Source: Trypanosoma brucei
Taxonomy: Eukaryota
Direction of reading: 5' to 3'
Assembly (NCBI GenBank): GCA_000002445.1
Contig: CP000070.1
Coordinates: 832,001 to 896,000, forward strand
Length of the DNA: 64,000 nt
The position numbers and the translations under genes were made by a program. Shown in pieces: positions 2,020 to 41,065 of the stretch. The stretch's first letter is position 1. Each line of letters begins with the position of its first letter. The notes beneath the pieces were generated by a model that ran no database searches, was not told where the DNA came from, and worked only from the letters and a program-made list of their open reading frames with translations.

Positions 2020-2317
2020 TGCGCGGCGCCGCCCACGGTGTGGCACCGCTTGCGCAATGAACGCATGGCCGAAATGTGCCCTTCGTAATATACAAAAAAA
2101 ACTCAGAGGGGTGGTGTTCCCTCGTTCTCCCCTCCCCCCGTCGCACGCCAACTGCACCTACTTGCACGGAAATCGACCGCGCTCTTTCTTTCTACTGGGC
2201 GCCGACTGATTTGCACCCCCTTTTCTAAACACCCACCCTTTTCCACCACCCCGTTATTTACCCCCGGCCCCGGCGTCAGCCGCCACTCGCAGTAGGATTC
2301 TTAGGGACATCTGGAGA

Positions 2318-2809
2318 ATGCTGCGCTCAACTCTGACCTCACTGAACACGTTTCTCACAAGCTCCGTCGCCACCCCACCGATATCTGTAATTAGAACGGG
2401 GCCGAAATGGTGGGCGGATCCCGAGCGCATGGTACGGCAGAAACTCATGTACTTCACGTTAGGGGTCGATCAGCTTCCACTGCGACGAACGGCGGTCATA
2501 CAGCGAGACCTGCAACGCTTCCATATGTGCAAACCGCCTCCCCGTGTTGGGGACTCAACGGGCTACAAACGCTCCCGGGCAGCTCAACTTAACACTTGGT
2601 ATCGCCGCATCCAGTACCAGGAGTATCACATGCAGCATCTCTTCACCAGGCATGTGTGGGGACTGTTGCGTGTGTACCCGGGGAACACTACGAAGATACA
2701 AGGCAAGGCAGATGATGGCTACGTGGGGTACGATTCGGTTCCGTTCCACCGATACAATCGGGCTCCTCTCCCGTTCCCCGCACGGGAACTTTACGAGCGG
2801 AGGAAATAG
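2318..2809 (+). CDS. Hypothetical small basic protein (163 aa), possible mitochondrial presequence
   Basis: ATG at 2318 checked. N-terminus 'MLRSTLTSLNTFLTSSVATPP' is R/S/T/L-rich. Same strand and spacing as the upstream gene and not overlapped by a better ORF. No motif recognised. Confidence 0.45.
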   Translation: MLRSTLTSLNTFLTSSVATPPISVIRTGPKWWADPERMVRQKLMYFTLGVDQLPLRRTAVIQRDLQRFHMCKPPPRVGDSTGYKRSRAAQLNTWYRRIQYQEYHMQHLFTRHVWGLLRVYPGNTTKIQGKADDGYVGYDSVPFHRYNRAPLPFPARELYERRK

Positions 2810-6160: not shown

Positions 6161-8374
6161 AACTAGGACCACCATTTGCAAAAATGGATCGCCCAAAGGA
6201 CGAACAGCTTCGACCCAGCTTGCGGGTGGGTTAGGATAGTTGCAATTCCTTCTTTTGGACTATCATCTAAAGCGTACTAAAACAAAGATTCGGGAGAAGT
6301 GAAAACCCACGTCGTGACAGGTCGTTATTAACCTTAACTCTACAACTGTCGTTGCCTTAACCAGTAGGGTTAGTCCTGTCTCCTTTTATGGTTGGCATTA
6401 TTCGCTTCTTCTTTTGTTGGGTAGCTAAATTTAAAAAAAAAATCTCCGGAGTTTAGCGCAGTTGGTTATTACAGTTTTCCTTTACACCCCGCTCCATTTA
6501 ATTCGATTTCCTAGTGTCCGGGTGTCGCCTGCCGAACGTGCATCTGTCCCTAGCTCTCCCCCCCCCTCTCGCTGGAAACCTATGTTAGTCTCATCCCCTT
6601 ATCCCCTCCCCCGAAATGTGTTTTTATTCTCTCTTTTTCCTTCCCCCTCCGTAACATTAATCAACAATACGAAGCAGGACGGTTTCGGCGGTAACATTCC
6701 CTTCAAAGCATTCGCAACAATAGAACTGCGGAACAAAGTGCAGCGGCACGAACACCCGAATGTGCTGCCGGATTGGACTCCGCTCTCATGACAGGTCTTC
6801 GCGCCGGTTCTGCAGAATAGTTGGATTTCAGTCGTACCTCCTGTCACTTTATTCCTAACCGCCCAAACCCCGCACTGAGGTCCCACTTCACAGCAACTCC
6901 AGATAGTTTTGTATCGCCTTGAATTGCCGTTCGTGAAGCTGGTCATTAGTGAGTTCTGCCTCTTTGTGCCCTATGCATTTCGTCAATTCATCCGCGGTAG
7001 TTTTTATTTTTTCCATAACCGCATTTTTTGCTTCTTCGAAACGCGCAAACAGGCGGATGACATCCCCAAATATACTCACTTTATTGGGATCTTCAGTCCA
7101 CCGCACTGCACCGTAGGAAGTGACGTCACCGTACTCTCCCCCCTTTACATTTAGTTTGCCTTCCACACTTGATGCGAAATTCATCACTCCACCACCCCAC
7201 GTGAAGCTGTGACTCAATGACCCACCTTTTAATAAACCGTCTGTTGCCGTCCTCATCAAGTTGCAACCCCTGTCTTCATTTCGTTCAATGATGCTCTCCG
7301 CACCCAAGCTACTGAAGGAAATGGATGATAGCGCTTCGTGGAGTTGCAAGTTTTTCTCTGCCGACTTCGTTACATGTGAATCCTCGATTTTGTAAAGGGT
7401 TTCAGGTCCAATTGTTCCACGAAAACATTCTTGCAACTTGTCGTGCACCGCTGGCCTGCTCCCTCCCACGCTTATGCAAAACTGCGACGTCGTGCGTGCC
7501 GCCTGTGCAAATGCAAAAATCCACTCTTCCAGTCTTCCGGCTGCTAACCCAGCGGCGGCTGCTGCTAGCGCCGATGCATTCCTCATTTCCTCTAACTCCT
7601 GCTGGAATGTAAACTCATTCTTCAATACTGTTTTCAAGAGTGTCCTGATGTCTTTACAATCTTTCTCACTAGAAGGTACGCTGTTTCGCATTACCGATAA
7701 CTGCAACTGCGCGCTTTTGATCTTCAAATCTGACAGTTTCTTCATAACCGCAGCACTCCCGCTGTTTACTCTGTGTGCTACCCCTTTAAGATATGTCGAT
7801 AACTCACACACTTTATTAGCGGCTGTCGCGTTTAGTGCATTCCTTTCATAATAATTTGCACGTGTTTCTTTTCCCAACAGCGCCAACAGCACGAACCAAA
7901 ACCTCATTTTGTTCTCTTTATTTAATTATACTTGAGCTTTCACCTTCGTTACTGAGTAAAAACTAAATCACTCGTGCTATTCTTGACACAGATTACCATT
8001 GTGGTGACAGTCCGGGAGAATACATTCTCAGTCCCATTTTGCTTTGTCCTACCAAACTCTCATTATAATAAACACCACTGCCTCACACGCGTAGGTAGCA
8101 GCTACGTCCCCCCAACACACACACACACACACAACATTCCCCTCAATTGCTCACTTGAAAACAAATAGCAACAGTAATAACACACACACCGCAACAAATT
8201 GTACCTCAAATACTTGTTTCCTTCCCTACATCCGAACCATCTTATCCAGCCTCCACTCGACACAGTGTTTTGAAGGGAATAAAAACCACTTCCAGGATAT
8301 TGCTAACCAACAACCCTCCTTCTCGTTAATTAACGCCCTTTTCAACCGATTCTCTTTCGGTGTAGATGATACCG
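6161..8374. repeat. Copy 2 of the 2.37-kb tandem duplication (ends at 'gatgataccg', then unique sequence) carrying an ESAG7-like gene
   Basis: Identity with 3787-5994 except for a 70-80 bp replaced cassette (6852-6935 vs 4469-4540) and a few flank SNPs or indels. Confidence 0.9.
6888..7907 (-). CDS. ESAG7: ESAG7-like transferrin-receptor subunit (339 aa), identical to the ESAG6-like copy over 330 aa but lacking the hydrophobic tail
   Basis: ATG at 7905-7907 checked. Identical to the 4329-5522 product until '...ELTNDQLHE', then 'RQFKAIQNYLELL*' with the stop inside the swapped cassette. The 339-aa size fits ESAG7. Confidence 0.7.
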   Translation of the reverse strand: MRFWFVLLALLGKETRANYYERNALNATAANKVCELSTYLKGVAHRVNSGSAAVMKKLSDLKIKSAQLQLSVMRNSVPSSEKDCKDIRTLLKTVLKNEFTFQQELEEMRNASALAAAAAGLAAGRLEEWIFAFAQAARTTSQFCISVGGSRPAVHDKLQECFRGTIGPETLYKIEDSHVTKSAEKNLQLHEALSSISFSSLGAESIIERNEDRGCNLMRTATDGLLKGGSLSHSFTWGGGVMNFASSVEGKLNVKGGEYGDVTSYGAVRWTEDPNKVSIFGDVIRLFARFEEAKNAVMEKIKTTADELTKCIGHKEAELTNDQLHERQFKAIQNYLELL

Positions 8375-26887: not shown

Positions 26888-29800
26888 TCAATGGTGCGCC
26901 CATGGCCCTCCCAAATGCGTTGTTGGGCAACCGGTTGCGTCGCCCTCGTCCTCATCGTCTTCACCTTCCTCAACAGAGCGCAAAAGCGATATCTCACGCA
27001 AAAGCTCCTTTGCACTCGTGGCAGAAACCTGACAACCACGAATGCGCGAGTCCAGATCCGTCATCAGTCCACCTATGTTGCGATTTAGCTCATCCACCAC
27101 ATCGTCGTGTTGTCTCCCTTTAGACTGTAATTCGACCATAAGTGCCTCTTTTTCACGCTTCAAACGCTCAAGCTGATGGCGCATCGAGCTAATGATATCT
27201 GTCCCACCCACGGCCAGATTGCTTGCAGACGGTACAGTCACCGCTGAGGTGGTGGAATTGCCAGTCTCTCCGAGATGCTCTGACGATGTCCAGGGGAGGG
27301 GAACGGGCATACCACCCTGTAGTTCCTCGATTCTGGCCTCCAGTTGTTGCATGACTGCCTCCACCTCACGCATCTCGTCGTCCTTAGCGTCTTGCAGGTC
27401 AAAGAGTTCCTGTTCACGGGCCTCCAGGGCCATCAACGCCGCCTTCTCCGCTGCTCGGGCTCCTTCAAGGACATTAACAAACTCATCGAGTTTACCAATG
27501 GTGTCAGTGTATTCAAACCCCTTCTCGTCCAACTCAAGCAACAGTGCAGCAATTTTTCTGTTAAGTGCATCAAGATCCTCTTTGTGAGTGATCTCCCGCT
27601 GTTCTAACTCTTCCCTCAGGGCAGCGTTCTCTTCGCTAAGTTTCTTAACCTCCTGTTCAAGTTCACCTACGAGATAAACGCCACTCATTAACTCTTCAAC
27701 CTTTCCACGGGCCACCTCCACGTGCGAACTTCGTGCCTTTTCAAGCATGTTGAACAGTGAGAGAAGCATCTCGTCACGGAACTTTTTGTCCCTATCTTGG
27801 GTGCAACGAAGTTCAAGTAACTCTTCCTCACGGGCAAAAAGCTCACTGCGCACCGTGCACTCAGCCTGACGAGCCTCATCCAATAGTACGACCATCTCCT
27901 CCATATTCTCCAGCATTTCGGTGTGTTCTGTGGCCCGCTCCTCAAGTTCGTCAAGTAAGTCACCTTCACGTTTCGCGCGAATACGGTCACGGTTGAGGAA
28001 CCCAACGACCAATAAGCACTGCAGCGAAGACAAAGAAGAGCGTTCAATAACCAAACGAGACAAGACCTCATCAACGAAAACACCCTGCTCATCAACCATG
28101 ACACCGCAGGCACGCCGCAAGAATGAAGACATCGTCAAATTGCCGCCACCAGCATCGTTAGTCCCAATACTACTGCCCAAAAGCAGCCGCTGCGTTTCCC
28201 TGAATGGGTAATGCTGAAGCCGTTGAGCAATTTCCGAAGGATGAATGCTTGAAGGATGGGTGACATCAAATTCAACCACACGACCACTCGGAGTGAACGT
28301 TACATTACTCACACAATCCCTGTAGACACGACATGCATTAGCAGCATCAACAACAACAGCACAACGTAACTCTTCCGGTTTATTCTTCAGCAACTCATCT
28401 AACCTCTCACCTTGAAGTTGAACACACTGAGAACTTACCATGCAATCTCCCTCCATCGAAGCCATCCACCGAGAATCATGTTTGCGCTCCTCCTCGCCGC
28501 CACGCGAAGGCTCATTCAACGCTTCCTCTAAGTCGTCCAGAGCGTTCGACATCAACACAGAAGGGCGATCATTGTGCGAAGAAGCGTCCACCACATCGAC
28601 ACCACTCCTCAGTTTTTTCAAAGCATCTACAGCTTTACGAAGCCCATCGCTCTGAGATACCAATTCATTGGTCTTGCGCTCATTCACAGCCTGCAGTTCC
28701 ATCACCTGCTCCTCCATATCACGAAGTCGTCTTTGTTGCTTGTCCAACTCATCTACCCTCAGTTCATCAGTGCCCCGCAATTGTTCATTCTGTGTCAGAA
28801 ATTCTTTCAGACGGTCACCAAGTTCCTGAAGTAGTTCGCCCTGAACAACAAGTTCATGAGATTTAATATCAAGTTCCTTCCGCAACTCGTCGTTTTCCGA
28901 AGATATCTCAGAGAGCTTCAGACGCAATTCCTTCACATCAGATAAAAGACATTCGATTTCTTTAGAATTTTCATCATCAACACTACGGAGATCGATATTT
29001 TCCCGCTTCACAAGAATCAACTCATTTTTGATAACACCAATACCATCACCGTCACCAGAAACATCCACATCAGCACTCTTCTCCTTCAAAAGATATTCAC
29101 CATCAGAATCAATTTTCATAGCACCGTCCTTCGCATCCCGAGAAACATCACGATCATCATTACGTAAAGAAAAAAGTTCGTTACTTCGTCTCAGTTCCTC
29201 ATTCTCAGTGCGTAGTTCAGCAAGTTGCTCCTCCATCTCATGAAGTTTCTCATTCTGCACATCAAGTTCACGTGCCTTGTCCCCTTCAGTATTGCGAAGC
29301 TCCTCATTCTCAGCGCGTAGTTCAGCAAGTTGCTCTTCCATCTCATGAAGTTTCTCATTCTGCACATCAAGTTCACGTGCCTTGTCACCATCAGTATTGC
29401 GAAGCTCCTCATTTTCAGCGCGTAGTTCAGCAAGTTGCTCCTCCATCTCATGAAGTTTCTCATTCTGCACATCAAGTTCACGTGCCTTGTCACCATCAGT
29501 ATTGCGAAGCTCCTCATTTTCAGCGCGTAGTTCGGCAAGTTGCTCCTCCATCTCATGAAGTTTCTCATTCTGCACATCAAGTTCACGTGCCTTGTCACCA
29601 TCAGTATTGCGAAGCTCCTCATTTTCAGCGCGTAGTTCAGCAAGTTGCTCCTCCATCTCATGAAGTTTCTCATTCTGCACATCAAGTTCACGTGCCTTGT
29701 CACCATCAGTATTGCGAAGCTCCTCATTTTCAGCGCGTAGTTCAGCAAGTTGCTCCTCCATCTCATGAAGTTTCTCATTCTGCACATCAAGTTCACGTGC

Positions 29801-32800
29801 CTTGTCACCATCAGTATTGCGAAGCTCCTCATTTTCAGCGCGTAGTTCGGCAAGTTGCTCCTCCATCTCATGAAGTTTCTCATTCTGCACATCAAGTTCA
29901 CGTGCCTTGTCACCATCAGTATTGCGAAGCTCCTCATTTTCAGCGCGTAGTTCAGCAAGTTGCTCCTCCATCTCATGAAGTTTCTCATTCTGCACATCAA
30001 GTTCACGTGCCTTGTCACCATCAGTATTGCGAAGCTCCTCATTTTCAGCGCGTAGTTCAGCAAGTTGCTCCTCCATCTCATGAAGTTTCTCATTCTGCAC
30101 ATCAAGTTCACGTGCCTTGTCACCATCAGTATTGCGAAGCTCCTCATTTTCAGCGCGTAGTTCAGCAAGTTGCTCCTCCATCTCATGAAGTTTCTCATTC
30201 TGCACATCAAGTTCACGTGCCTTGTCCCCTTCAGTATTGCGAAGCTCCTCATTTTCAGCGCGTAGTTCAGCAAGTTGCTCCTCCATCTCATGAAGTTTCT
30301 CATTCTGCACATCAAGTTCACGTGCCTTGTCACCATCAGTATTGCGAAGCTCCTCATTTTCAGCGCGTAGTTCAGCAAGTTGCTCCTCCATCTCATGAAG
30401 TTTCTCATTCTGCACATCAAGTTCACGTGCCTTGTCACCATCAGTATTGCGAAGCTCCTCATTTTCAGCGCGTAGTTCAGCAAGTTGCTCTTCCATCTCA
30501 TGAAGTTTCTCATTCTGTACATCAAGTTCACGTGCCTTGTCACCTTCAGTATTGCGAAGCTCCTCATTCTCAGCGCGTAGTTCAGCAAGTTGCTCCTCCA
30601 TCTCATGAAGTTTCTCATTCTGTACATCAAGTTCACGTGCCTTGTCACCATCAGTATTGCGAAGCTCCTCATTCTCAGCGCGTAGTTCAGCAAGTTGCTC
30701 CTCCATCTCATGAAGTTTCTCATTCTGCACATCAAGTTCACGTGCCTTGTCACCATCAGTATTGCGAAGCTCCTCATTTTCAGCGCGTAGTTCAGCAAGT
30801 TGCTCCTCCATCTCATGAAGTTTCTCATTCTGCACATCAAGTTCACGTGCCTTGTCACCATCAGTATTGCGAAGCTCCTCATTCTCAGCGCGTAGTTCAG
30901 CAAGTTGCTCCTCCATCTCATGAAGTTTCTCATTCTGCACATCAAGTTCACGTGCCTTGTCACCATCAGTATTGCGAAGCTCCTCATTCTCAGCGCGTAG
31001 TTCAGCAAGTTGCTCCTCCATCTCATGAAGTTTCTCATTCTGTACATCAAGTTCACGTGCCTTGTCACCATCAGTATTGCGAAGCTCCTCATTCTCAGCG
31101 CGTAGTTCAGCAAGTTGCTCTTCCATCTCATGAAGTTTCTCATTCTGCACATCAAGTTCACGTGCCTTGTCACCATCAGTATTGCGAAGCTCCTCATTCT
31201 CAGCGCGTAGTTCAGCAAGTTGCTCCTCCATCTCATGAAGTTTCTCGTTCTGCACATCAAGTTCACGTGCCTTGTCACCATCAGTATTGCGAAGCTCCTC
31301 ATTTTCAGCGCGTAGTTCAGCAAGTTGCTCCTCCATCTCATGAAGTTTCTCATTCTGCACATCAAGTTCACGTGCCTTGTCACCATCAGTATTGCGAAGC
31401 TCCTCATTCTCAGCGCGTAGTTCAGCAAGTTGCTCCTCCATCTCATGAAGTTTCTCATTCTGCACATCAAGTTCACGTGCCTTGTCCCCTTCAGTATTGC
31501 GAAGCTCCTCATTCTCAGTGCGTAGTCCATTTATCTTCTGTTCAAGTTCTTTTTGTAGGTAGAGAAGTTGCTGATTTCTTACTTCTAGTTCTCTTAATTT
31601 AGCGTGCTGCTCCTCTCGTATTCCTGTATTTTCGGTGCGCACTTCTCGGAGTTGTTCAACTAGTTCTTGGACTCTTCCTGATTGGACGCATAGATCGAGT
31701 GACTTTTCCACTTCGTGTTCGCGTAGCTGTTCGTTTTCTTTTTGTAGTTCGTTGGCATCTTGCTGTAGTTGTCGTAGTTGTGAATTTAGCTCCTCTATTT
31801 GATTTGTTTTACTGTTACAAATTTGCTGGAGATTGCTGTGAGATTCAGATAAAGTTCTCATCTGCCGATGTACATCCTGTATGTATTCGCTCTGCTTTTT
31901 TGCATCTACAGATATAATTTCATTATTTTTACAGAGTTCCTCATTTTCCCTAGCCAGAGTATTTAATTGGTTCTCTACAGCAGTTAGCCGCGCCTGTTGT
32001 GCAGCTAGTTCATTTGTTTTCTCCTCTTGTAATCGGAGAAGATCATCCCTCTCAGACGAAACATCATGCAGTTTTGCGCCAAGTTCACAGAGTTCTTGTT
32101 CTAGAGTATTCAGTTGTTGACGGCCTTCGTCGATTTGCTCCTTCAATAGATCTAGGCCATCCTTAGGTTCATTTAATTTCAACAGCAGCCGCTGCGTTTC
32201 CCTGAATGGGTAATGCTGAAGCCGTTGAGCAATTTCCGAAGGATGAATGCTTGAAGGATGGGTGACATCAAATTCAACCACACGACCACTCGGAGTGAAC
32301 GTTACATTACTCACACAATCCCTGTAGACACGACATGCATTAGCAGCATCAACAACAACAGCACAACGTAACTCTTCCGGTTTATTCTTCAGCAACTCAT
32401 CTAACCTCTCACCTTGAAGTTGAACACACTGAGAACTTACCATGCAATCTCCCTCCATCGAAGCCATCCACCGAGAATCATGTTTCCGCAGCTCATCATT
32501 TTCAGCACGAATCGCCTTCAGACTCTCTTGTAGCAAAGAAATTTTGGACTCAACGTTAGCAATCAGTTCATTAAGAGACTCAATTTCCTTTGCGTTATCA
32601 GATTCGGCAAGACGAAGTTGCTCATTTTCCTCCTTAAGTTGTTGCAAATGTCGCTCCACCTCGCACACATGTTTCTTGAGCAAATCAAGCTCACGGGCTT
32701 TTTCTTCTTCAGCACGGTGGAGCTCCTCGCTTTCTTTACTCAACTTTTTGATGTGTTGATCCTTTGCCGAACAGAGTTCATTTTGCGCATCAAGCTCAAT

Positions 32801-35800
32801 CACCTTCTCTCTGACACACTCCCTCAATGCATCCACTTCCTCTTGCATCTTCTTCACCTTTTCCTCCATTTCCTCCAGATGACGACTCCGCAAGTCAAGT
32901 TCACGTGCCTTTTCGGCCTCCGAATCCCGAAGCCCACCGTTTTCAGTGCGAAGTTCAGCAAGTTGCTCTTCCATCTCATTAAGTTTCTCATTCTGCACAT
33001 CAAGTTCACGTGCTTTCGCCTCATCAGAGCCGCGAAGTTGCTCATTTTGAACTAAAAATTCTTGAAGCTTACCGTCCAAGTCACCTAGTAAACCTTCCTG
33101 AACAACAAGATCATTCGACTTACACTCCAAAGTTCTCTTGAGATCACAATTTTCTTCCACTAAAGCATCTAATTGGTTCTCTACAGCAGTTAGCCGCGCC
33201 TGTTGTGCAGCTAGTTCATTTGTTTTCTCCTCTTGTAATCGGAGAAGATCATCCCTCTCAGACGAAACATCATGCAGTTTTGCGCCAAGTTCACAGAGTT
33301 CTTGTTCTAGAGTATTCAGTTGTTGACGGCCTTCGTCGATTTGCTCCTTCAATAGATCTAGGCCATCCTTAGGTTCATTTAATTTCAACAGCAGCCGCTG
33401 CGTTTCCCTGAATGGGTAATGCTGAAGCCGTTGAGCAATTTCCGAAGGATGAATGCTTGAAGGATGGGTGACATCAAATTCAACCACACGACCACTCGGA
33501 GTGAACGTTACATTACTCACACAATCCCTGTAGACACGACATGCATTAGCAGCATCAACAACAACAGCACAACGTAACTCTTCCGGTTTATTCTTCAGCA
33601 ACTCATCTAACCTCTCACCTTGAAGTTGAACACACTGAGAACTTACCATGCAATCTCCCTCCATCGAAGCCATCCACCGAGAATCATGTTTCCGCAGCTC
33701 ATCATTTTCAGCACGAATCGCCTTCAGACTCTCTTGTAGCAAAGAAATTTTGGACTCAACGTTAACAATCAGTTCATTAAGAGACTCAATTTCCTTTGCG
33801 TTATCAAAATCAGTAAGACGAAGTTGCTCATTTTCCTCCTTAAGTTGTTGCAAATGCCGTTCCATCTCATGAAGTTTCTCATTCTGTACATCAAGTTCAC
33901 GTGCCTTGTCACCATCAGTATTGCGAAGCTCCTCATTCTCAGCGCGTAGTTCAGCAAGTTGCTCCTCCATCTCATGAAGTTTCTCATTCTGCACATCAAG
34001 TTCACGTGCCTTGTCACCATCAGTATTGCGAAGCTCCTCATTTTCCTCCTTAAGTTGTTGCAAATGCCGTTCCATCTCATGAAGTTTCTCATTCTGTACA
34101 TCAAGTTCACGTGCCTTGTCACCATCAGTATTGCGAAGCTCCTCATTCTCAGCGCGTAGTTCAGCAAGTTGCTCCTCCATCTCATGAAGTTTCTCATTCT
34201 GCACATCAAGTTCACGTGCCTTGTCACCATCAGTATTGCGAAGCTCCTCATTCTCAGCGCGTAGTTCAGCAAGTTGCTCTTCCATCTCATGAAGTTTCTC
34301 ATTCTGCACATCAAGTTCACGTGCCTTGTCCCCTTCAGTATTGCGAAGCTCCTCATTCTCAGCGCGTAGTTCAGCAAGTTGCTCCTCCATCTCATGAAGT
34401 TTCTCATTCTGCACATCAAGTTCACGTGCCTTGTCACCATCAGTATTGCGAAGCTCCTCATTCTCAGCGCGTAGTTCAGCAAGTTGCTCTTCCATCTCAT
34501 GAAGTTTCTCATTCTGCACATCAAGTTCACGTGCCTTGTCCCCTTCAGTATTGCGAAGCTCCTCATTCTCAGCGCGTAGTTCAGCAAGTTGCTCCTCCAT
34601 CTCATGAAGTTTCTCATTCTGCACATCAAGTTCACGTGCCTTGTCACCATCAGTATTGCGAAGCTCCTCATTCTCAGCGCGTAGTTCAGCAAGTTGCTCC
34701 TCCATCTCATGAAGTTTCTCATTCTGTACATCAAGTTCACGTGCCTTGTCACCATCAGTATTGCGAAGCTCCTCATTCTCAGCGCGTAGTTCAGCAAGTT
34801 GCTCTTCCATCTCATGAAGTTTCTCATTCTGCACATCAAGTTCACGTGCCTTGTCACCATCAGTATTGCGAAGCTCCTCATTCTCAGCGCGTAGTTCAGC
34901 AAGTTGCTCTTCCATCTCATGAAGTTTCTCATTCTGCACATCAAGTTCACGTGCCTTGTCACCATCAGTATTGCGAAGCTCCTCATTCTCAGCGCGTAGT
35001 TCAGCAAGTTGCTCTTCCATCTCATGAAGTTTCTCATTCTGTACATCAAGTTCACGTGCCTTGTCACCATCAGTATTGCGAAGCTCCTCATTTTCAGCGC
35101 GTAGTTCAGCAAGTTGCTCCTCCATCTCATGAAGTTTCTCATTCTGCACATCAAGTTCACGTGCCTTGTCACCTTCAGTATTGCGAAGCTCCTCATTTTC
35201 AGCGCGTAGTTCAGCAAGTTGCTCTTCCATCTCATGAAGTTTCTCATTCTGTACATCAAGTTCACGTGCCTTGTCACCATCAGTATTGCGAAGCTCCTCA
35301 TTTTCAGCGCGTAGTTCGGCAAGTTGCTCCTCCATCTCATGAAGTTTCTCATTCTGTACATCAAGTTCACGTGCCTTGTCACCATCAGTATTGCGAAGCT
35401 CCTCATTTTCAGCGCGTAGTTCGGCAAGTTGCTCCTCCATCTCATGAAGTTTCTCATTCTGTACATCAAGTTCACGTGCCTTGTCACCATCAGTATTGCG
35501 AAGCTCCTCATTTTCAGCGCGTAGTTCAGCAAGTTGCTCCTCCATCTCATGAAGTTTCTCATTCTGCACATCAAGTTCACGTGCCTTGTCCCCTTCAGTA
35601 TTGCGAAGCTCCTCATTCTCAGCGCGTAGTTCAGCAAGTTGCTCCTCCATCTCATGAAGTTTCTCATTCTGCACATCAAGTTCACGTGCCTTGTCCCCTT
35701 CAGTATTGCGAAGCTCCTCATTCTCAGTGCGTAGTTCAGCAAGTTGCTCCTCCATCTCATGAAGTTTCTCATTCTGCACATCAAGTTCACGTGCCTTGTC

Positions 35801-38800
35801 CCCTTCAGTATTGCGAAGCTCCTCATTTTCAGCGCGTAGTTCAGCAAGTTGCTCCTCCATCTCATGAAGTTTCTCATTCTGTACATCAAGTTCACGTGCC
35901 TTGTCACCATCAGTATTGCGAAGCTCCTCATTCTCAGCGCGTAGTTCAGCAAGTTGCTCTTCCATCTCATGAAGTTTCTCATTCTGCACATCAAGTTCAC
36001 GTGCCTTGTCCCCTTCAGTATTGCGAAGCTCCTCATTCTCTGCGCGTAGTTCAGCAAGTTGCTCCTCCATCTCATGAAGTTTCTCATTCTGTACATCAAG
36101 TTCACGTGCCTTGTCACCATCAGTATTGCGAAGCTCCTCATTCTCAGCGCGTAGTTCAGCAAGTTGCTCCTCCATCTCATGAAGTTTCTCATTCTGTACA
36201 TCAAGTTCACGTGCCTTGTCACCATCAGTATTGCGAAGCTCCTCATTCTCAGCGCGTAGTTCAGCAAGTTGCTCTTCCATCTCATGAAGTTTCTCATTCT
36301 GCACATCAAGTTCACGTGCCTTGTCCCCTTCAGTATTGCGAAGCTCCTCATTCTCAGCGCGTAGTTCGGCAAGTTGCTCCTCCATCTCATGAAGTTTCTC
36401 ATTCTGCACATCAAGTTCACGTGCCTTGTCCCCTTCAGTATTGCGAAGCTCCTCATTCTCAGCGCGTAGTTCAGCAAGTTGCTCCTCCATCTCATGAAGT
36501 TTCTCATTCTGCACATCAAGTTCACGTGCCTTGTCCCCTTCAGTATTGCGAAGCTCCTCATTTTCAGCGCGTAGTTCAGCAAGTTGTTCCTCCATCTCAT
36601 GAAGTTTCTCATTCTGCACATCAAGTTCACGTGCCTTGTCCCCTTCAGTATTGCGAAGCTCCTCATTTTCAGCGCGTAGTTCGGCAAGTTGCTCCTCCAT
36701 CTCATGAAGTTTCTCATTCTGCACATCAAGTTCACGTGCCTTGTCCCCTTCAGTATTGCGAAGCTCCTCATTCTCAGCGCGTAGTTCAGCAAGTTGCTCC
36801 TCCATCTCATGAAGTTTCTCATTCTGCACATCAAGTTCACGTGCCTTGTCACCATCAGTATTGCGAAGCTCCTCATTCTCAGCGCGTAGTTCAGCAAGTT
36901 GCTCCTCCATCTCATGAAGTTTCTCATTCTGCACATCAAGTTCACGTGCCTTGTCACCATCAGTATTGCGAAGCTCCTCATTTTCAGCGCGTAGTTCAGC
37001 AAGTTGCTCTTCCATCTCATGAACGTATCCCTGCAGCTGGACGTCACCTGATGCTGCTTCCCTAATGCGATGAAGCTCCTCATTTTCAGCGCGTAGTTCA
37101 GCAAGTTGCTCTTCCATCTCATGAACGTATCCCTGCAGCTCGACGTCACCTGATGCTGCTTCCCTAATGCGATGAAGCTCCTCATTTTCAGCGCGTAGTT
37201 CAGCAAGTTGCTCTTCCATCTCATGAACGTATCCCTGCAGCTCGACGTCACCTGATGCTGCTTCCCTAATGCGATGAAGCTCCTCATTTTCAGCGCGTAG
37301 TTCAGCAAGTTGCTCTTCCATCTCATGAACGTATCCCTGCAGCTCGACGTCACCTGAAGCTGCTTCCCTAATGCAATGAAGCTCTTCTTTTTCTATTAGT
37401 TGTCCTATTATCTGTTGATGTGGTCGCATGGGGCTGTGTTGTCCTTGTTTGTCTTCTTTTATTCGTACTGCTTTTCTTTCTTCGGGGGACTCTTCGCTTA
37501 ATGGTTCTTCGGTTTTTTGTTGCCTCTGACGATGTGCTCTTATGTTACATATATTATCTTTGTCGTGATCACGTAACGATTCGTCTTGTTCATGTAGCTT
37601 GCTGTGCTCTGTTGGGGTTTCTTTTCTGTACGTTTCCCTTGTCTGACATTCTTCTGAACTTTCGACGGATGTGTTGGTGCGGGTTGTTTCTTCTTCGCTA
37701 GTTTCTTTCTCTAAAAGATATCCGTCGTCTTTTGCGTCCTCGGTTTTTGTTTGAATAACTTCTTCTTTGTTTTCTTTTGTCCGGCGTAGTAAAGTGTTTT
37801 CGTCATTCAGTATGCGTAGCCTCTCCTCCAATGCTTTTATGTGCCCTCGTAGTTCCTCAATCTGAGCAATTTCCTCCCTGGTGGACATGAATAAATCACC
37901 ATCGTCCAGGGTTTCGTGCAAACTGTGAGAATAAGAAGGACTGTCTTGGTGATCTCCTTCCCTCCGGCCTCTATTGCTGTGTTGGTGAGGGTCACTTTCT
38001 CCTTGTTTCCCGATCGTTTGCATTAGTTGCAACACTGAAAGAAACTCTGCCCTCCTGACCCGTTGTGCGAGATCGTATTGTGACACGGAAGGAGGGTGAG
38101 AGACGGTGAACACGACAGATGTGTAGTACTCATTGAAACAAATATCGTCAATATCACTGATATCTACCTGGCAAGCACGAGCGGCATCCACAAGAACGGC
38201 TTTGTTGATATCTTCTCTATTGTTGATTATGTGCGTCCTCCATTCACGGAGATCGATATTCTTTTTGAGTGTGGATGTGACCCTCTCCCCATGTTGGTCT
38301 TTATGTCCCTCGATGATGTAGCCCTCTCTGCTCCCACCGCGAGTTGATGCATGCAGCGGAGACTCGTGCTCACTTACCCCCTGGTCCGTAGCGTCGTATC
38401 CTCTAATCTGATCACCGCTGCTTTCCCTTTGTAGTTCCTCTATTTCTTTGCGGTAGTGCTCCAGCTGACGAAGATCTTCGTCATGGCGCTGCTTAAGTTC
38501 GCTGATCTTGATTATCCCTTCTTGGCGCGTCTTCTCTGCCAGTTCACGCTGCTCGTTCAGGAGCTGCTGTAGCTCGTTGTTCACCCGCTGCGCTTCTTCA
38601 ATTTGTTGTAAGAGGTCACTGTTCTCTTCATGGGCAATATCAGTGGAATTTTGCCGTGGCTGAGAGTCCACTGCTTCGTCCTTCGGCTGCAAACCACCAC
38701 AGCTGAACCCCCCTTCCAACGCATGATGAAGAGCAACGTGGAGCAGCGGGCGGTGAATGGTAGCGCACCAGTCAATGAACTGCACATCCTTGTCCGTAAT

Positions 38801-39892
38801 GCTAACGACATCACCATTATCATCCGAAATACTCAAAACTGTCAGAATACAAGAACGGGAAACGTTGGTTGACGGCCTATCAGCAGAGGCAACGAACGTA
38901 AGGTACTGTTCGCTCTCATCTTCGCAAGCCCCATCGTCAACACTGCTTCCCTCTTCAGCACTGCAGTGCAACTTTGTTTCAATGCGCTTGATTTGCGTGT
39001 TCAGTTCCTTTATGTGAGCTATGTGGCTGGTAATATTCGCGTGCAGCTCGTCTGTGGACCGCTGAGAGTTTACGATCTCACATATGACGTGAAACATGCC
39101 CATCTGGGCAATGATCCAATCAAAAAGAAGAGGTAGCAGGGTGTCAGTACCGGACCTCGACCCGCCGGTCGTTTTCCCACTTAGTTGATTGCAGTAGAGG
39201 TGGACATCGGACATGTAGGCATCGTTGATGTCGTTGTAAAGTTCTACGCTCATATCAGTCATTGGGTCAAATTCCAGCAACCGCTGTATGTAGGTCGGAT
39301 CCCTCACAGCGGCCCGCAGGTCCTCCCACGACCATGAGGAATCAACAACCAAGTCCTCATTTAGAAGTGCGACAGTTGCCTCTAGCGCAAGCCGAAGTTG
39401 CACCGATGGAACCCGTGTGTTGAACACTTCGTGAAGTCGCACCTCCTCTACAGCCGCAATAGCACGACGAACGGCATCGGAAGACTCCTTTGCACGCCCC
39501 ATGGCCGCCTCATTGTTACGCCGAACAGCCGCCATCTCCTCGCGCAACGCCATAACACTCATGTGGCGGTGCCTCATCTCCTCCATTTTCCTCTCTTTGT
39601 CGATCCTTAGTGTGTTGAGAACAGCGGGATCGTGGCTGTTCTGTGGGAGCAACACACGCACCGTAGCGGAACGTGAATCCAGCTGCAACACGCGCCCCAG
39701 AAACCATCGCCGCTTGGAAGCTTTGCCTAATAATTCATAGGCCACAAGAGACCCCACGCACAAGGGGTCTTTCACACTATTAAGTAACGACTTCACACGG
39801 CTGTGGGTCGGACTAGCGCCTTTGTCCAACGCATGCAGAGAATCTGCTGTTTGTGACCACTCCTCATCGAAATGGCCTTCGGCGGTTGCCAT
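26888..39892 (-). CDS. FAZ10: Giant (4334 aa, ~0.5 MDa) coiled-coil repeat protein; candidate FAZ10-type flagellum-attachment-zone protein
   Basis: Single uninterrupted minus-frame ORF. The track start is GTG; the first ATG is at 39890-39892 ('MATAEGHFDEEW'), checked. ~750-aa non-repetitive N-terminal region, then heptad-rich coiled coil built from 35-aa repeats 'EELRNT(D/E)GDKARELDVQNEKLHEMEEQLAELRAEN'. The FAZ10 assignment rests on size and on recalled neighbouring genes, not on a search. Confidence 0.85.
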   Translation of the reverse strand: MATAEGHFDEEWSQTADSLHALDKGASPTHSRVKSLLNSVKDPLCVGSLVAYELLGKASKRRWFLGRVLQLDSRSATVRVLLPQNSHDPAVLNTLRIDKERKMEEMRHRHMSVMALREEMAAVRRNNEAAMGRAKESSDAVRRAIAAVEEVRLHEVFNTRVPSVQLRLALEATVALLNEDLVVDSSWSWEDLRAAVRDPTYIQRLLEFDPMTDMSVELYNDINDAYMSDVHLYCNQLSGKTTGGSRSGTDTLLPLLFDWIIAQMGMFHVICEIVNSQRSTDELHANITSHIAHIKELNTQIKRIETKLHCSAEEGSSVDDGACEDESEQYLTFVASADRPSTNVSRSCILTVLSISDDNGDVVSITDKDVQFIDWCATIHRPLLHVALHHALEGGFSCGGLQPKDEAVDSQPRQNSTDIAHEENSDLLQQIEEAQRVNNELQQLLNEQRELAEKTRQEGIIKISELKQRHDEDLRQLEHYRKEIEELQRESSGDQIRGYDATDQGVSEHESPLHASTRGGSREGYIIEGHKDQHGERVTSTLKKNIDLREWRTHIINNREDINKAVLVDAARACQVDISDIDDICFNEYYTSVVFTVSHPPSVSQYDLAQRVRRAEFLSVLQLMQTIGKQGESDPHQHSNRGRREGDHQDSPSYSHSLHETLDDGDLFMSTREEIAQIEELRGHIKALEERLRILNDENTLLRRTKENKEEVIQTKTEDAKDDGYLLEKETSEEETTRTNTSVESSEECQTRETYRKETPTEHSKLHEQDESLRDHDKDNICNIRAHRQRQQKTEEPLSEESPEERKAVRIKEDKQGQHSPMRPHQQIIGQLIEKEELHCIREAASGDVELQGYVHEMEEQLAELRAENEELHRIREAASGDVELQGYVHEMEEQLAELRAENEELHRIREAASGDVELQGYVHEMEEQLAELRAENEELHRIREAASGDVQLQGYVHEMEEQLAELRAENEELRNTDGDKARELDVQNEKLHEMEEQLAELRAENEELRNTDGDKARELDVQNEKLHEMEEQLAELRAENEELRNTEGDKARELDVQNEKLHEMEEQLAELRAENEELRNTEGDKARELDVQNEKLHEMEEQLAELRAENEELRNTEGDKARELDVQNEKLHEMEEQLAELRAENEELRNTEGDKARELDVQNEKLHEMEEQLAELRAENEELRNTEGDKARELDVQNEKLHEMEEQLAELRAENEELRNTDGDKARELDVQNEKLHEMEEQLAELRAENEELRNTDGDKARELDVQNEKLHEMEEQLAELRAENEELRNTEGDKARELDVQNEKLHEMEEQLAELRAENEELRNTDGDKARELDVQNEKLHEMEEQLAELRAENEELRNTEGDKARELDVQNEKLHEMEEQLAELRTENEELRNTEGDKARELDVQNEKLHEMEEQLAELRAENEELRNTEGDKARELDVQNEKLHEMEEQLAELRAENEELRNTDGDKARELDVQNEKLHEMEEQLAELRAENEELRNTDGDKARELDVQNEKLHEMEEQLAELRAENEELRNTDGDKARELDVQNEKLHEMEEQLAELRAENEELRNTEGDKARELDVQNEKLHEMEEQLAELRAENEELRNTDGDKARELDVQNEKLHEMEEQLAELRAENEELRNTDGDKARELDVQNEKLHEMEEQLAELRAENEELRNTDGDKARELDVQNEKLHEMEEQLAELRAENEELRNTDGDKARELDVQNEKLHEMEEQLAELRAENEELRNTDGDKARELDVQNEKLHEMEEQLAELRAENEELRNTEGDKARELDVQNEKLHEMEEQLAELRAENEELRNTDGDKARELDVQNEKLHEMEEQLAELRAENEELRNTEGDKARELDVQNEKLHEMEEQLAELRAENEELRNTDGDKARELDVQNEKLHEMEEQLAELRAENEELRNTDGDKARELDVQNEKLHEMERHLQQLKEENEELRNTDGDKARELDVQNEKLHEMEEQLAELRAENEELRNTDGDKARELDVQNEKLHEMERHLQQLKEENEQLRLTDFDNAKEIESLNELIVNVESKISLLQESLKAIRAENDELRKHDSRWMASMEGDCMVSSQCVQLQGERLDELLKNKPEELRCAVVVDAANACRVYRDCVSNVTFTPSGRVVEFDVTHPSSIHPSEIAQRLQHYPFRETQRLLLKLNEPKDGLDLLKEQIDEGRQQLNTLEQELCELGAKLHDVSSERDDLLRLQEEKTNELAAQQARLTAVENQLDALVEENCDLKRTLECKSNDLVVQEGLLGDLDGKLQEFLVQNEQLRGSDEAKARELDVQNEKLNEMEEQLAELRTENGGLRDSEAEKARELDLRSRHLEEMEEKVKKMQEEVDALRECVREKVIELDAQNELCSAKDQHIKKLSKESEELHRAEEEKARELDLLKKHVCEVERHLQQLKEENEQLRLAESDNAKEIESLNELIANVESKISLLQESLKAIRAENDELRKHDSRWMASMEGDCMVSSQCVQLQGERLDELLKNKPEELRCAVVVDAANACRVYRDCVSNVTFTPSGRVVEFDVTHPSSIHPSEIAQRLQHYPFRETQRLLLKLNEPKDGLDLLKEQIDEGRQQLNTLEQELCELGAKLHDVSSERDDLLRLQEEKTNELAAQQARLTAVENQLNTLARENEELCKNNEIISVDAKKQSEYIQDVHRQMRTLSESHSNLQQICNSKTNQIEELNSQLRQLQQDANELQKENEQLREHEVEKSLDLCVQSGRVQELVEQLREVRTENTGIREEQHAKLRELEVRNQQLLYLQKELEQKINGLRTENEELRNTEGDKARELDVQNEKLHEMEEQLAELRAENEELRNTDGDKARELDVQNEKLHEMEEQLAELRAENEELRNTDGDKARELDVQNEKLHEMEEQLAELRAENEELRNTDGDKARELDVQNEKLHEMEEQLAELRAENEELRNTDGDKARELDVQNEKLHEMEEQLAELRAENEELRNTDGDKARELDVQNEKLHEMEEQLAELRAENEELRNTDGDKARELDVQNEKLHEMEEQLAELRAENEELRNTDGDKARELDVQNEKLHEMEEQLAELRAENEELRNTDGDKARELDVQNEKLHEMEEQLAELRAENEELRNTEGDKARELDVQNEKLHEMEEQLAELRAENEELRNTDGDKARELDVQNEKLHEMEEQLAELRAENEELRNTDGDKARELDVQNEKLHEMEEQLAELRAENEELRNTEGDKARELDVQNEKLHEMEEQLAELRAENEELRNTDGDKARELDVQNEKLHEMEEQLAELRAENEELRNTDGDKARELDVQNEKLHEMEEQLAELRAENEELRNTDGDKARELDVQNEKLHEMEEQLAELRAENEELRNTDGDKARELDVQNEKLHEMEEQLAELRAENEELRNTDGDKARELDVQNEKLHEMEEQLAELRAENEELRNTDGDKARELDVQNEKLHEMEEQLAELRAENEELRNTDGDKARELDVQNEKLHEMEEQLAELRAENEELRNTDGDKARELDVQNEKLHEMEEQLAELRAENEELRNTEGDKARELDVQNEKLHEMEEQLAELRTENEELRRSNELFSLRNDDRDVSRDAKDGAMKIDSDGEYLLKEKSADVDVSGDGDGIGVIKNELILVKRENIDLRSVDDENSKEIECLLSDVKELRLKLSEISSENDELRKELDIKSHELVVQGELLQELGDRLKEFLTQNEQLRGTDELRVDELDKQQRRLRDMEEQVMELQAVNERKTNELVSQSDGLRKAVDALKKLRSGVDVVDASSHNDRPSVLMSNALDDLEEALNEPSRGGEEERKHDSRWMASMEGDCMVSSQCVQLQGERLDELLKNKPEELRCAVVVDAANACRVYRDCVSNVTFTPSGRVVEFDVTHPSSIHPSEIAQRLQHYPFRETQRLLLGSSIGTNDAGGGNLTMSSFLRRACGVMVDEQGVFVDEVLSRLVIERSSLSSLQCLLVVGFLNRDRIRAKREGDLLDELEERATEHTEMLENMEEMVVLLDEARQAECTVRSELFAREEELLELRCTQDRDKKFRDEMLLSLFNMLEKARSSHVEVARGKVEELMSGVYLVGELEQEVKKLSEENAALREELEQREITHKEDLDALNRKIAALLLELDEKGFEYTDTIGKLDEFVNVLEGARAAEKAALMALEAREQELFDLQDAKDDEMREVEAVMQQLEARIEELQGGMPVPLPWTSSEHLGETGNSTTSAVTVPSASNLAVGGTDIISSMRHQLERLKREKEALMVELQSKGRQHDDVVDELNRNIGGLMTDLDSRIRGCQVSATSAKELLREISLLRSVEEGEDDEDEGDATGCPTTHLGGPWAHH
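29195..31525 (-). repeat. Array A: ~22 tandem copies of a 105-bp coding repeat (35-aa unit) inside the giant gene
   Basis: Period measured from 'tcagtattgcgaagctcctcatt' recurring every 105 bp. Copies differ only at a few mostly synonymous positions (ctgcacatc/ctgtacatc, ctcctcc/ctcttcc) and a D/E site. Confidence 0.9.
31960..32650 (-). repeat. ~690-bp intragenic module, duplicated at 33165-33855 (period ~1205 bp); a 300-bp partial third copy lies at 28183-28483
   Basis: 'cagcagccgctgcgtttccctgaatgggtaatgctgaagccgttgagc' appears at 28183, 32187 and 33393, identical over ~300 bp. Encodes 'KHDSRWMASMEGD...VVVDAANACRVYRDCVSNVTFTPSGRVVEFDVTHPSSIHPSEIAQRLQHYPFRETQRLL'. Confidence 0.85.
33856..37020 (-). 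repeat. Array B: ~30 tandem copies of the same 105-bp repeat
   Basis: Same unit as array A, separated from it by ~2.3 kb of unique or duplicated module sequence. Confidence 0.9.
37020..37385 (-). repeat. ~3.5 copies of a diverged 102-bp (34-aa) repeat at the protein-N-terminal side of array B
   Basis: 'gcgatgaagctcctcattttcagcgcgtagttcagcaagttgctcttccatctcatgaacgtatccctgcagctcgacgtcacctgatgctgcttccctaat' recurs with period 102. Protein unit 'EEQLAELRAENEELHRIREAASGDVELQGYVHEM'. Confidence 0.85.
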
Positions 39893-41065
39893 TGTAGGAA
39901 AGAGAACACGGAACACTAGCTAAAGCACCCAAAAGTACCTGGTCCCAAAACCCTGGTTGACACTTTGCTACTCTCCCCCTTCCCTCAATCGCTCTACTAC
40001 ACCTCGCTCACAAGTTCTACTGACTTCGCACTCAGCGGAGTTCGGATTCTTCCAAGACACGGCCAAATCCTCTCCTCCTCCTCCTCCTGTTTTTGCCCTT
40101 TTTTTTTCGTTCTATTACAAAAATTAAACAAAACTTTTGTCCTCCCCAACACTCACCCTCGCGGTGGCAAACACCAGTAGCAGTGGTGGTGTCGCCTCGT
40201 CACACTCGAAATGAACTACCGACTTGGGTGTGTTAACTCAGCCTTTCCACGGGGTTAGATCGCTCTTCAACTTTTCTGGCCCCTGTAGGTGCGGTTCTGA
40301 CCGTTCTTCGGGAATACTATAATGTACAACGATGCAAGCAGAGGAAACAGGAGAAATGAAATGATGGACACGACCCACTTGTAAAATCGACTAGTGCGTG
40401 GGTCTAAAGATAACACACAAATGCACAGTTATTTGTTTCTTACAAAGAAATCCGCACACTCAACGATACTTTTTCGACCTCTTCCTGCCGCTTGCAGTCT
40501 GACGCTCTTGCAACGATCCGCAAAAGCACAAGGCCAACACCAAACAGATACGATGCGATATGATATTATACGTATACCCACGTAATATCCAGAAAGTAGC
40601 GCATCTGCATCCTCCCCCCCCCCTCGTTGCAGCCACCTGTTTCTACGTGCGGGCACAATAAAGGAAGAAGGTCGCTTCCTTCTCACTATCAAGTGGAGGT
40701 CAAAGGAAAGACCACCCCTCTGGTCTGAGGCTTAAAATGAAAACAACGATGTGTCGGCAACTTCTGCAGTTCATTCAGGAGAATGGCACAACGTCGCATG
40801 TACGACCACCGTCGCCACCAGCAGCGGCACCGACAGAAGTTGATAGTTATAATTTTTTCCCCCTTTTAAAGTTCTGTACCGCGTAATCACCCGATGCCTC
40901 CTCCCTTCCTGTCGTTTGCTCGATGGGGAAGATAAATGTGAACGACAAATGTGGCAGTCACTTGTGAAGGGTCAAAATCAAAACATACCAATACACCACC
41001 AACTACGTCCTCAGCCTGACACCGCACCTTCCCACGCACGCACTCGCATGGGGCACCACACGCTC

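What the first reader, a model, noticed from the sequence alone, without database searches (positions are those of the whole stretch)
28183..28483. Unassigned ~70-100-aa globular module repeated 3-4 times inside the coiled-coil giant
Segments at 28183-28483, 32187-32485 and 33393-33690 are 100% identical DNA. They encode 'NKPEELRCAVVVDAANACRVYRDCVSNVTFTPSGRVVEFDVTHPSSIHPSEIAQRLQHYPFRETQRLLL'. A diverged fourth copy near 38100-38400 ('INNREDINKAVLVDAARACQVDISDIDDICFNEYYTSVVFTVSHPPSVSQYDLAQRVRRAEFLSVLQLMQ') keeps the pattern 'VDAAxACxV...V(T/S)HP...'. The mix of beta-strand-like and conserved Cys/His residues embedded periodically in a coiled-coil rod suggests spaced protein-binding or anchoring domains. 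I do not recognise it as a named domain.
Basis: partly seen in the sequence, partly recalled or inferred. Interest (0 to 1): 0.55.

Follow-up and report, generated by a model that had tools for sequence, protein, structure and literature searches.

The report
FAZ10's repeated FAZ1-type globular domain
The repeated 90-residue module is real, but it is the already catalogued "FAZ1 conserved domain" (Pfam PF23398), present four times in the known Trypanosoma brucei flagellum-attachment giant FAZ10, so the finding is ordinary, although the domain's function is still undefined.

Summary
Three 302-nt blocks (28182-28483, 32184-32485, 33390-33691) are 100% identical. On the minus strand they encode the quoted peptide inside one 13,005-nt ORF (26888-39892). 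A diverged fourth copy lies at 38018-38287.

The interpretation "unassigned domain" does not hold. All four copies match Pfam PF23398 "FAZ1, conserved domain" (82 and 64 bits against a cutoff of 27.5; 279 bits for the whole protein, four stretches).

The ORF is T. brucei FAZ10 (Tb927.7.3330). It has the published 13,005 bp and 4,334 aa, about 55 35-aa repeats, and D2070 and P2576 exactly where a 2026 preprint sets the "central region". That preprint had already modelled, expressed and measured this globular domain: 12 kDa, monomeric, three strands plus four helices.

My AlphaFold model (pLDDT 90.5) gives the same fold, a generic ferredoxin/SEA-like alpha+beta sandwich. No solved structure matches it significantly.

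The identical copies are unlikely to be an assembly artefact of one copy. Each has unique in-frame flanks. Two were PCR-cloned together from strain 427. Giant homologues in Leishmania and Angomonas show the same pattern of one diverged copy plus identical copies, which points to concerted evolution.

The likely role, inferred and not shown, is non-dimerising knobs or docking nodes at coiled-coil junctions. Novelty: already known.

The parts
26888..39892 (-). FAZ10 (Tb927.7.3330) coding sequence, 13,005 nt including the stop codon, 4,334 aa from the first ATG
   Evidence: ORF list and translation. Length and residue landmarks match PMC5358337 and bioRxiv 10.64898/2026.05.05.722045. D2070 and P2576 verified.
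38018..38287 (-). D1: diverged FAZ1_cons copy (aa 536-625), about 33% identical to D2-D4; keeps the family Trp that D2-D4 have lost
   Evidence: Pfam PF23398 E = 1.5e-17, model positions 7-92 of 93. Own profile gives 79.9 bits. Coordinates.
33386..33655 (-). D2: FAZ1_cons copy (aa 2080-2169), at the N-terminal end of the published 'central region'
   Evidence: Pfam best stretch 2083-2168. Own profile gives 112.8 bits. AF2 model pLDDT 90.5. Coordinates.
32180..32449 (-). D3: FAZ1_cons copy (aa 2482-2571), at the C-terminal end of the 'central region'
28178..28447 (-). D4: FAZ1_cons copy (aa 3816-3905), between the second repeat array/linker and the C-terminal coiled coil; this is the finding's own segment
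   Evidence: Pfam E = 2.4e-23.. The same context appears in T. equiperdum fragments P0003 and P0081.
28182..28483 (.). 302-nt block, 100% identical to 32184-32485 and 33390-33691
   Evidence: Exact extension.
32184..32485 (.). Second copy of the 302-nt identical block; it lies inside the 595-nt block 31964-32558, which is identical to 33170-33764
33390..33691 (.). Third copy of the 302-nt identical block; it lies inside the 595-nt block 33170-33764
32165..33685 (-). Published 'central region' D2070-P2576: D2, then about 310 aa of parallel coiled coil, then D3
   Evidence: Residue mapping. Paper sections read.
33861..37329 (-). 35-aa (105-nt) repeat array 1, 33.1 copies, 96% matches
   Evidence: TRF; the repeat finder.
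29196..31526 (-). 35-aa (105-nt) repeat array 2, 22.2 copies, 98% matches
   Evidence: TRF; the repeat finder.

Best explanation
The segment encodes copy 4 of the FAZ1_cons domain (Pfam PF23398) of Trypanosoma brucei FAZ10 (Tb927.7.3330). FAZ10 is the giant coiled-coil protein of the flagellum attachment zone 'staples'. It carries four such domains: one diverged copy near the N-terminus and three DNA-identical copies.

Each domain is a compact fold of about 90 aa (strand, two helices, strand, strand, two helices). It sits where one coiled-coil segment ends (motif KHDSRW) and the next begins (motif PKDGLDLL after D2 and D3).

Shown by others: the rod dimerises through the parallel coiled coil, while the isolated 12-kDa domain is monomeric.

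Inferred: each junction therefore displays a pair of non-dimerising knobs. These interrupt or hinge the rod and most likely act as docking surfaces, either for other FAZ components or for lateral FAZ10-FAZ10 contacts. I put about 50% on docking as the role.

The DNA identity of D2-D4 is best explained by intragenic duplication and gene conversion. This is the same homogenisation that keeps the 35-aa repeats 96-98% alike.
For: Domain identity. PF23398 scores 82.3 and 63.8 bits against a cutoff of 27.5. There are four stretches and 279 bits on the whole protein. All 85 aligned family instances hit PF23398.

Protein identity.
- The ORF is 13,005 nt and 4,334 aa, the same as in PMC5358337 and the 2026 preprint.
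- D2070 and P2576 fall exactly on the preprint's central-region limits.
- There are about 55 35-aa repeats.
- T. equiperdum fragments are 98.5-99.8% identical.
- Neighbouring ORFs carry the African-trypanosome VSG-type domain.

Fold. The AF2 model has pLDDT 90.5 and pTM 0.79, with order b1-a1-a2-b2-b3-a3-a4. This matches the preprint's '3 antiparallel strands + 4 helices'. The preprint's SEC-MALS and CD show a monomeric 12-kDa domain and a dimeric coiled coil.

Concerted evolution. Angomonas P0001 (7 copies), L. infantum P0004 (5 copies) and L. enriettii P0006 (4 copies) also have 100%-identical internal copies. P0001 and P0004 additionally have a diverged N-terminal copy.
Against: No binding partner or function of the domain has been demonstrated. 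The preprint says explicitly that its biochemical function is undefined.

FAZ10 migrates at about 2,000 kDa against 502 kDa predicted. The assembled gene may therefore be incomplete, and the true number of modules is uncertain.
Confidence: 0.85

Rival explanations
1. The three identical copies are an assembly artefact: one real copy was pasted or collapsed into several places.
For: The gene is highly repetitive. Other T. brucei-clade assemblies break it at the arrays (P0002, P0003 and P0081 are fragments). The protein runs about four times larger than predicted, and the authors suspect misassembled repeats. No reads are available here.
Against: Each copy sits in frame between different unique flanks: array 1 and the central coiled coil, the central coiled coil and array 2, the linker and the C-terminus.

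The D2-coiled coil-D3 region was PCR-amplified from strain 427 and expressed as a 66-kDa protein, and it is length-conserved across strains.

The D4 context recurs in independent T. equiperdum assemblies. The same pattern of identical copies recurs in Leishmania and Angomonas genomes.

If anything, the assembly under-counts copies.
Confidence: 0.04
2. It is a new, unnamed domain family.
For: The 2017 FAZ10 paper reports 'no recognizable motifs'. The 2026 preprint does not cite any family. The search for homologous proteins returned nothing.
Against: The Pfam PF23398 match is far above threshold for all four copies. UniProt naming of homologues derives from that family. PF23398 is cited as an enriched signature in a 2026 repeat-protein survey. 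There are 78 representative homologues in the 1.8-billion-protein library.
Confidence: 0.02
3. It is a Cys/His metal-binding module (zinc- or copper-binding), as the conserved Cys/His residues might suggest.
Against: Only one His is conserved in the family. The 'AC.V' Cys is replaced by Leu in half the members, and the other Cys are not conserved. There is no CxxC motif. The HMA similarity is at the generic ferredoxin-fold level.
Confidence: 0.03
4. It is a divergent intracellular relative of SEA or SEA-like domains, acting as a mechanical (force-bearing, possibly self-cleaving) element and not as a docking site.

For: hhalign against the MUC1 SEA domain aligns in the structural register (P = 0.011).

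25 of 85 family instances have G-S-hydrophobic in the b2-b3 hairpin, where SEA domains cleave at G|SVVV.

The FAZ is a load-bearing structure.
Confidence: 0.06

Closest known systems
Pfam PF23398 'FAZ1, conserved domain' (FAZ1_cons), named after T. brucei FAZ1
   Same: All four copies match the model nearly end to end, far above the gathering score. They occur in the same kind of host protein: trypanosomatid giant repeat and coiled-coil cytoskeletal proteins.
   Different: Nothing categorical. D2-D4 depart from the family consensus at four well-conserved positions (H26->Q, W35->L, W105->Q, Y108->L). D1 keeps the Trp at position 35.
T. brucei FAZ10, Tb927.7.3330 (Moreira et al. 2017, PMC5358337; Osorio-Mogollon et al. 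2026, bioRxiv 10.64898/2026.05.05.722045)
   Same: It is the same gene: 13,005 bp, 4,334 aa, 35-aa repeats, central region D2070-P2576 flanked by two globular domains with 3 strands and 4 helices.
   Different: The papers do not state four things: that the two central globular domains are sequence-identical, that two further copies exist (D1 and D4), that they belong to PF23398, or what fold class they resemble.
SEA / SEA-like domains (e.g. MUC1 2acm, TMPRSS11 2e7v, MUC16-like 1ivz, Gpr126 SEA)
   Different: There is no significant sequence or profile similarity. It has three strands, not four. It is intracellular and cytoskeletal, not extracellular and juxtamembrane. FAZ10 has no G|S cleavage motif.
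mL100, a kinetoplastid-specific mitoribosomal protein (PDB 7aih chain BG)
   Same: The family profile matches residues 1224-1273 at E = 6.9e-8, covering strand 1 and helices 1-2.
   Different: Only the first half of the domain aligns. The host is a ribosomal protein, not a coiled-coil cytoskeletal giant. I did not check whether that region is ordered in the map.

Membership tests
Pfam PF23398 FAZ1_cons | HMM score above the curated gathering threshold (27.5 bits) | tested here: met
   82.3 bits for D2-D4 and 63.8 bits for D1. 279.1 bits and 4 stretches on the whole protein.
Pfam PF23398 FAZ1_cons | Near full-length coverage of the 93-position model | tested here: met
   Model positions 3-90 (D2-D4) and 7-92 (D1) of 93.
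Pfam PF23398 FAZ1_cons | Family-wide conserved positions (the His of V-x-H-P, the Asp of F-x-x-D-x-A, the hydrophobic core) | tested here: met
   H83 (77 of 83) and D53 (64 of 85) are present in all four copies. Four other consensus positions are substituted in D2-D4.
Pfam PF23398 FAZ1_cons | Occurrence in kinetoplastid proteins | tested here: met
   Named homologues come from Trypanosoma, Leishmania, Angomonas, Leptomonas, Porcisia, Strigomonas and Lotmaria. The window carries African-trypanosome VSG-type ORFs.
T. brucei FAZ10 (Tb927.7.3330) | ORF of 13,005 bp encoding 4,334 aa | tested here: met
   Window 26888-39892 is 13,005 nt and 4,334 aa. Published values read.
T. brucei FAZ10 (Tb927.7.3330) | Two arrays of nearly identical 35-aa repeats (about 52) separated by a central region D2070-P2576 | tested here: met
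   33.1 + 22.2 copies of a 105-nt unit. Residues 2070 and 2576 are D and P and bound the D2...D3 segment.
T. brucei FAZ10 (Tb927.7.3330) | Localisation to FAZ intermembrane staples; RNAi phenotype | not testable with these tools
   Taken from PMC5358337.
SEA domain | Four-stranded antiparallel sheet with beta-alpha-beta-beta-alpha-beta topology | tested here: not met
   The AF2 model has three strands; the position of strand 4 is taken by helix a4.
SEA domain | Significant sequence or profile similarity to SEA | tested here: inconclusive
   hhalign against the single MUC1 SEA sequence gives Prob 3.9% and P = 0.011. No SEA hit appears among the top families when the 85 members are scanned against Pfam. 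No full SEA profile was available.
SEA domain | G|S[VI]VV autoproteolysis motif in the b2-b3 hairpin (canonical cleaving SEA) | tested here: not met
   The FAZ10 copies have TPSGRVV and NEYYTSV. 25 of 85 family instances have GS plus a hydrophobic residue.

The most novel reading that the evidence does not exclude
The FAZ1_cons module is a divergent, strand-truncated intracellular relative of SEA or SEA-like domains. It would serve as a mechanical, load-bearing node at coiled-coil junctions of FAZ giants. In the roughly 30% of family members that carry G-S-hydrophobic in the b2-b3 hairpin, it might even self-cleave or sense force.

A related possibility: the real FAZ10 gene (about 2 MDa protein) may contain more module-plus-array super-repeats than the four assembled copies, and these could set the periodicity of the FAZ staples.
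Probability: 0.08. Interest if true: 0.5.

Novelty: already known. Interest (0 to 1): 0.12.

Why it matters
The host protein (FAZ10) and the domain family (PF23398) are both catalogued, and the very domain flagged here has already been modelled, expressed and biophysically characterised. The finding therefore adds little.

Small increments over the literature:
- FAZ10 has four copies of the domain, not just the two described.
- Three copies are identical at the DNA level.
- The pattern of one diverged N-terminal copy plus identical internal copies recurs in giant homologues of other genera, which points to concerted evolution of whole domain-plus-rod units.
- The fold is a generic ferredoxin/SEA-like sandwich with no close solved relative.

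The real open question is what the domain binds or does in the flagellum attachment zone. That needs experiments, not sequence analysis.

Tried and rejected
- The search for homologous proteins with the 121-aa module returned no hit at E <= 1e-3. The word index missed the family; the exhaustive representative search later found 78 members.
- The look-up of encoding contigs found no record of the exact 4,334-aa protein.
- The afdb50 fold library was unavailable.
- Foldseek against the PDB gave nothing at E <= 0.001; the best was 0.079, to generic alpha/beta folds.
- phmmer of the single module against PDB sequences gave only a marginal mL100 hit (E = 0.11). With the 85-sequence profile this became E = 6.9e-8.
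- SEA homology: hhalign against MUC1 SEA gave Prob 3.9%, and the GS hairpin motif is present in only 25 of 85 instances and absent from FAZ10. I kept this only as a low-probability lead.
- The metal-binding idea was rejected because the Cys are not conserved.
- The assembly-artefact idea was rejected for the existence of separate copies. Repeat and module number may still be under-assembled.
- A tRNA scan of the window found none.
- I could not analyse surface conservation or the geometry of the N- and C-termini, because model coordinates are not exposed.

Full report
**1. Observation**

The window contains a single 13,029-nt open frame on the minus strand (26888-39916). From its first ATG (39892) it encodes 4,334 aa.

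- Exact-match extension shows three 302-nt blocks that are 100% identical: 28182-28483, 32184-32485 and 33390-33691. Copies 2 and 3 are identical over 595 nt (31964-32558 = 33170-33764).
Its starts for copies 2 and 3 are 2 nt off register.
- The quoted peptide is encoded at aa 2101-2169, 2503-2571 and 3837-3905. The diverged peptide is at aa 556-625, window 38018-38227.
- The identity ends abruptly on both sides of copy 4, and each copy lies in frame between different flanking sequence.
- Two arrays of a 105-nt (35-aa) unit, with 33.1 and 22.2 copies at 96-98% matches, fill most of the rest of the gene.

**2. What the module is**

A Pfam scan of the identical copy gives PF23398 "FAZ1, conserved domain" with E = 2.4e-23 (82.3 bits, gathering score 27.5, model positions 3-90 of 93). 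The diverged copy gives E = 1.5e-17 (63.8 bits). The whole protein gives four stretches and 279 bits, and no other credible family.

An exhaustive profile search of 1.84 billion representative proteins found 78 proteins at E <= 1e-3 and 35 at E <= 1e-10, many with several copies.

- Those that carry names come from Trypanosoma, Leishmania, Angomonas, Leptomonas, Porcisia, Strigomonas and Lotmaria.
- UniProt calls them [quoted passage not shown]. Other source names are "flagellar attachment zone protein, putative", "microtubule-associated protein Gb4" and "kinesin".
- All 85 domain instances that I aligned hit PF23398.
- A profile built from them finds exactly four copies in the six-frame translation of the window, all in this ORF.

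**3. What the protein is**

The literature identifies the host.

- Moreira et al. 2017 (PMC5358337) describe T. brucei FAZ10 (Tb927.7.3330) as a 13,005-bp ORF on chromosome 7. It has 52 nearly identical 35-aa repeats in two coiled-coil regions separated by a central region. 39892 - 26888 + 1 = 13,005.
- A 2026 preprint (10.64898/2026.05.05.722045) gives 4,334 aa and defines the central region as D2070-P2576. In my numbering, residues 2070 and 2576 are D and P, and they bound the segment from just before D2 to just after D3.
- Fragments from T. equiperdum assemblies are 99.8% (aa 3818-4334) and 98.5% (aa 3553-4334) identical. A Logan contig product is 98.2% identical to aa 1-821.
- Two neighbouring ORFs carry the African-trypanosome VSG A-type domain.

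The window is therefore T. brucei-group chromosome 7, and the "coiled-coil giant" is FAZ10.

**4. What was already known about this domain**

The preprint modelled the central region as a parallel coiled-coil dimer about 51 nm long. It is flanked at each end by globular domains of the same fold, "three antiparallel beta strands and four alpha helices".

- The authors PCR-amplified the central region, the coiled coil and the globular domain from strain 427.
- SEC-MALS showed that the central region (124 kDa) and the coiled coil (65 kDa) are dimers, while the globular domain is a 12-kDa monomer with a mixed alpha/beta CD spectrum.
- They state that the domain has no defined biochemical function and may mediate FAZ10-FAZ10 or FAZ10-partner contacts.
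- They do not mention Pfam, the sequence identity of the two domains, or the two further copies.

**5. Structure and comparison**

With the 85-sequence alignment, AlphaFold2 gives a confident model (mean pLDDT 90.5, pTM 0.79). The order is b1(21-29), a1, a2, b2(65-70), b3(76-84), a3, a4, preceded and followed by helices that belong to the flanking coiled coils. This agrees with the preprint.

- The top of the list mixes SEA and SEA-like domains (Gpr126 6.2, 2e7v 6.1, 1ivz 5.8, IA-2 5.6, TMPRSS6 5.4) with other ferredoxin-like folds: IS200 transposase, the MscS C-terminal domain, MrpE, RRM and HMA.
- Foldseek finds nothing at E <= 0.001.
- hhalign of the family profile against the MUC1 SEA domain aligns in the structurally expected register, but with probability 3.9% (P = 0.011).

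The robust statement is that this is a generic ferredoxin/SEA-like alpha+beta sandwich lacking the fourth strand. Homology to SEA is not established.

By sequence, the profile also matches residues 1224-1273 of the kinetoplastid mitoribosomal protein mL100 (7aih_BG, E = 6.9e-8). This match covers the first half of the domain.

**6. Conservation**

- Only the His of V(T/S)HP is nearly invariant (77 of 83).
- D53, G32, W35, A49 and the hydrophobic core positions are conserved at 60-87%.
- The Cys in "AC.V" is Cys in 36 and Leu in 36 of 85 instances, and the other Cys are not conserved. The "conserved Cys/His" hint therefore reduces to one His, and a metal site is unlikely.
- D2-D4 depart from the consensus at H26Q, W35L, W105Q and Y108L. 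D1 keeps W35.
- In the FAZ10-like subfamily the domain is preceded by HD(E/S)RW and followed by PK.G.D.L. These mark the end and the restart of the coiled coil.

**7. Why identical, and is it an artefact?**

- The copies have distinct in-frame flanks.
- D2 and D3 were amplified together from another strain, and the region is length-conserved across strains.
- The D4 and D1 contexts recur in independent assemblies.
- The same pattern occurs in other genera. Angomonas deanei P0001 has 7 copies, Leishmania infantum P0004 has 5 and L. enriettii P0006 has 4. In each, the internal copies are 100% identical, and P0001 and P0004 also have a diverged N-terminal copy. Several smaller proteins show 97-100% identical pairs.

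This pattern is what concerted evolution produces (unequal crossover and gene conversion of domain-plus-rod units), as it does for the 35-aa repeats. It does not fit an artefact of one copy.

The opposite error is possible. FAZ10 runs at about 2,000 kDa against 502 kDa predicted, and the authors suspect under-assembled repeats. Four modules is therefore a minimum.

**8. Mechanism**

Shown: the domain family, the fold prediction, the position at coiled-coil junctions, the monomeric isolated domain and the dimeric rod.

Inferred: the domains form paired, non-dimerising knobs that interrupt the rod. They probably provide docking surfaces for FAZ partners or lateral FAZ10 contacts, with a possible hinge role. 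I give about 50% to docking. The rest is divided between a purely structural spacer or hinge and a mechanical role.

**9. Verdict**

The interpretation "unassigned domain" is not supported. The feature is already known: PF23398 in T. brucei FAZ10, and the same domain has been characterised biophysically. Interest is low. The only open matter is the domain's function, which sequence analysis cannot settle.

Noticed in passing
window 29191-31602 and 33769-37353, both strands: Long ORFs of 776-1194 aa in other frames and on the + strand overlap the 35-aa repeat arrays. They arise because the 105-nt unit lacks stop codons in several frames. They are not genes.
   Followed up: partly
window 26888-39892 (whole FAZ10 gene): The published protein migrates at about 2,000 kDa against 502 kDa predicted from this ORF. 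Other T. brucei-clade assemblies break the gene at the arrays. The repeat number, and possibly the module number, in this sequence may be under-assembled.
   Followed up: partly
PDB 7aih chain BG (mL100), residues 1224-1273: The FAZ1_cons family profile matches the kinetoplastid-specific mitoribosomal protein mL100 at E = 6.9e-8, covering the first half of the domain. So the module is not confined to FAZ or cytoskeletal giants, and part of it may already be present in a solved structure.
   Followed up: partly
homologues P0001 (Angomonas deanei), P0004 (L. infantum), P0006 (L. enriettii): Giant homologues in other genera carry 4-7 copies of the domain. The internal copies are 100% identical, and P0001 and P0004 also have a diverged N-terminal copy, mirroring FAZ10. 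This is concerted evolution of domain-plus-rod units across the family.
   Followed up: partly
alignment A2, b2-b3 hairpin (query positions 71-75): 25 of 85 family instances carry G-S-hydrophobic in the hairpin at the position where SEA domains self-cleave (G|SVVV). FAZ10's copies have PSGR or EYYT there. This may be coincidental turn chemistry.
   Followed up: partly
window 4329-5522 and 6888-7907 (minus strand): Two paralogous ORFs (397 and 339 aa) match the trypanosome VSG A-type domain PF00913 (E about 2e-10) at a chromosome-internal position. They are probably VSG-related or ESAG-like surface protein genes.
   Followed up: no
window 172-2019 (+) versus all other large ORFs (-): The only large + strand ORF, a WD40 protein, faces the minus-strand gene run. 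This suggests a convergent strand-switch region around 2,000-4,300. No tRNA genes were found anywhere in the window.
   Followed up: no
window 36900-37330 (aa about 860-985 of FAZ10): The first four units of array 1 are a distinct subtype (…ELHRIREAASGDVELQGYVHEMEEQLAELRAENE), unlike the main unit (…ELRNTDGDKARELDVQNEKLHEMEEQLAELRAENE). Main units alternate NTDGD and NTEGD variants.
   Followed up: no
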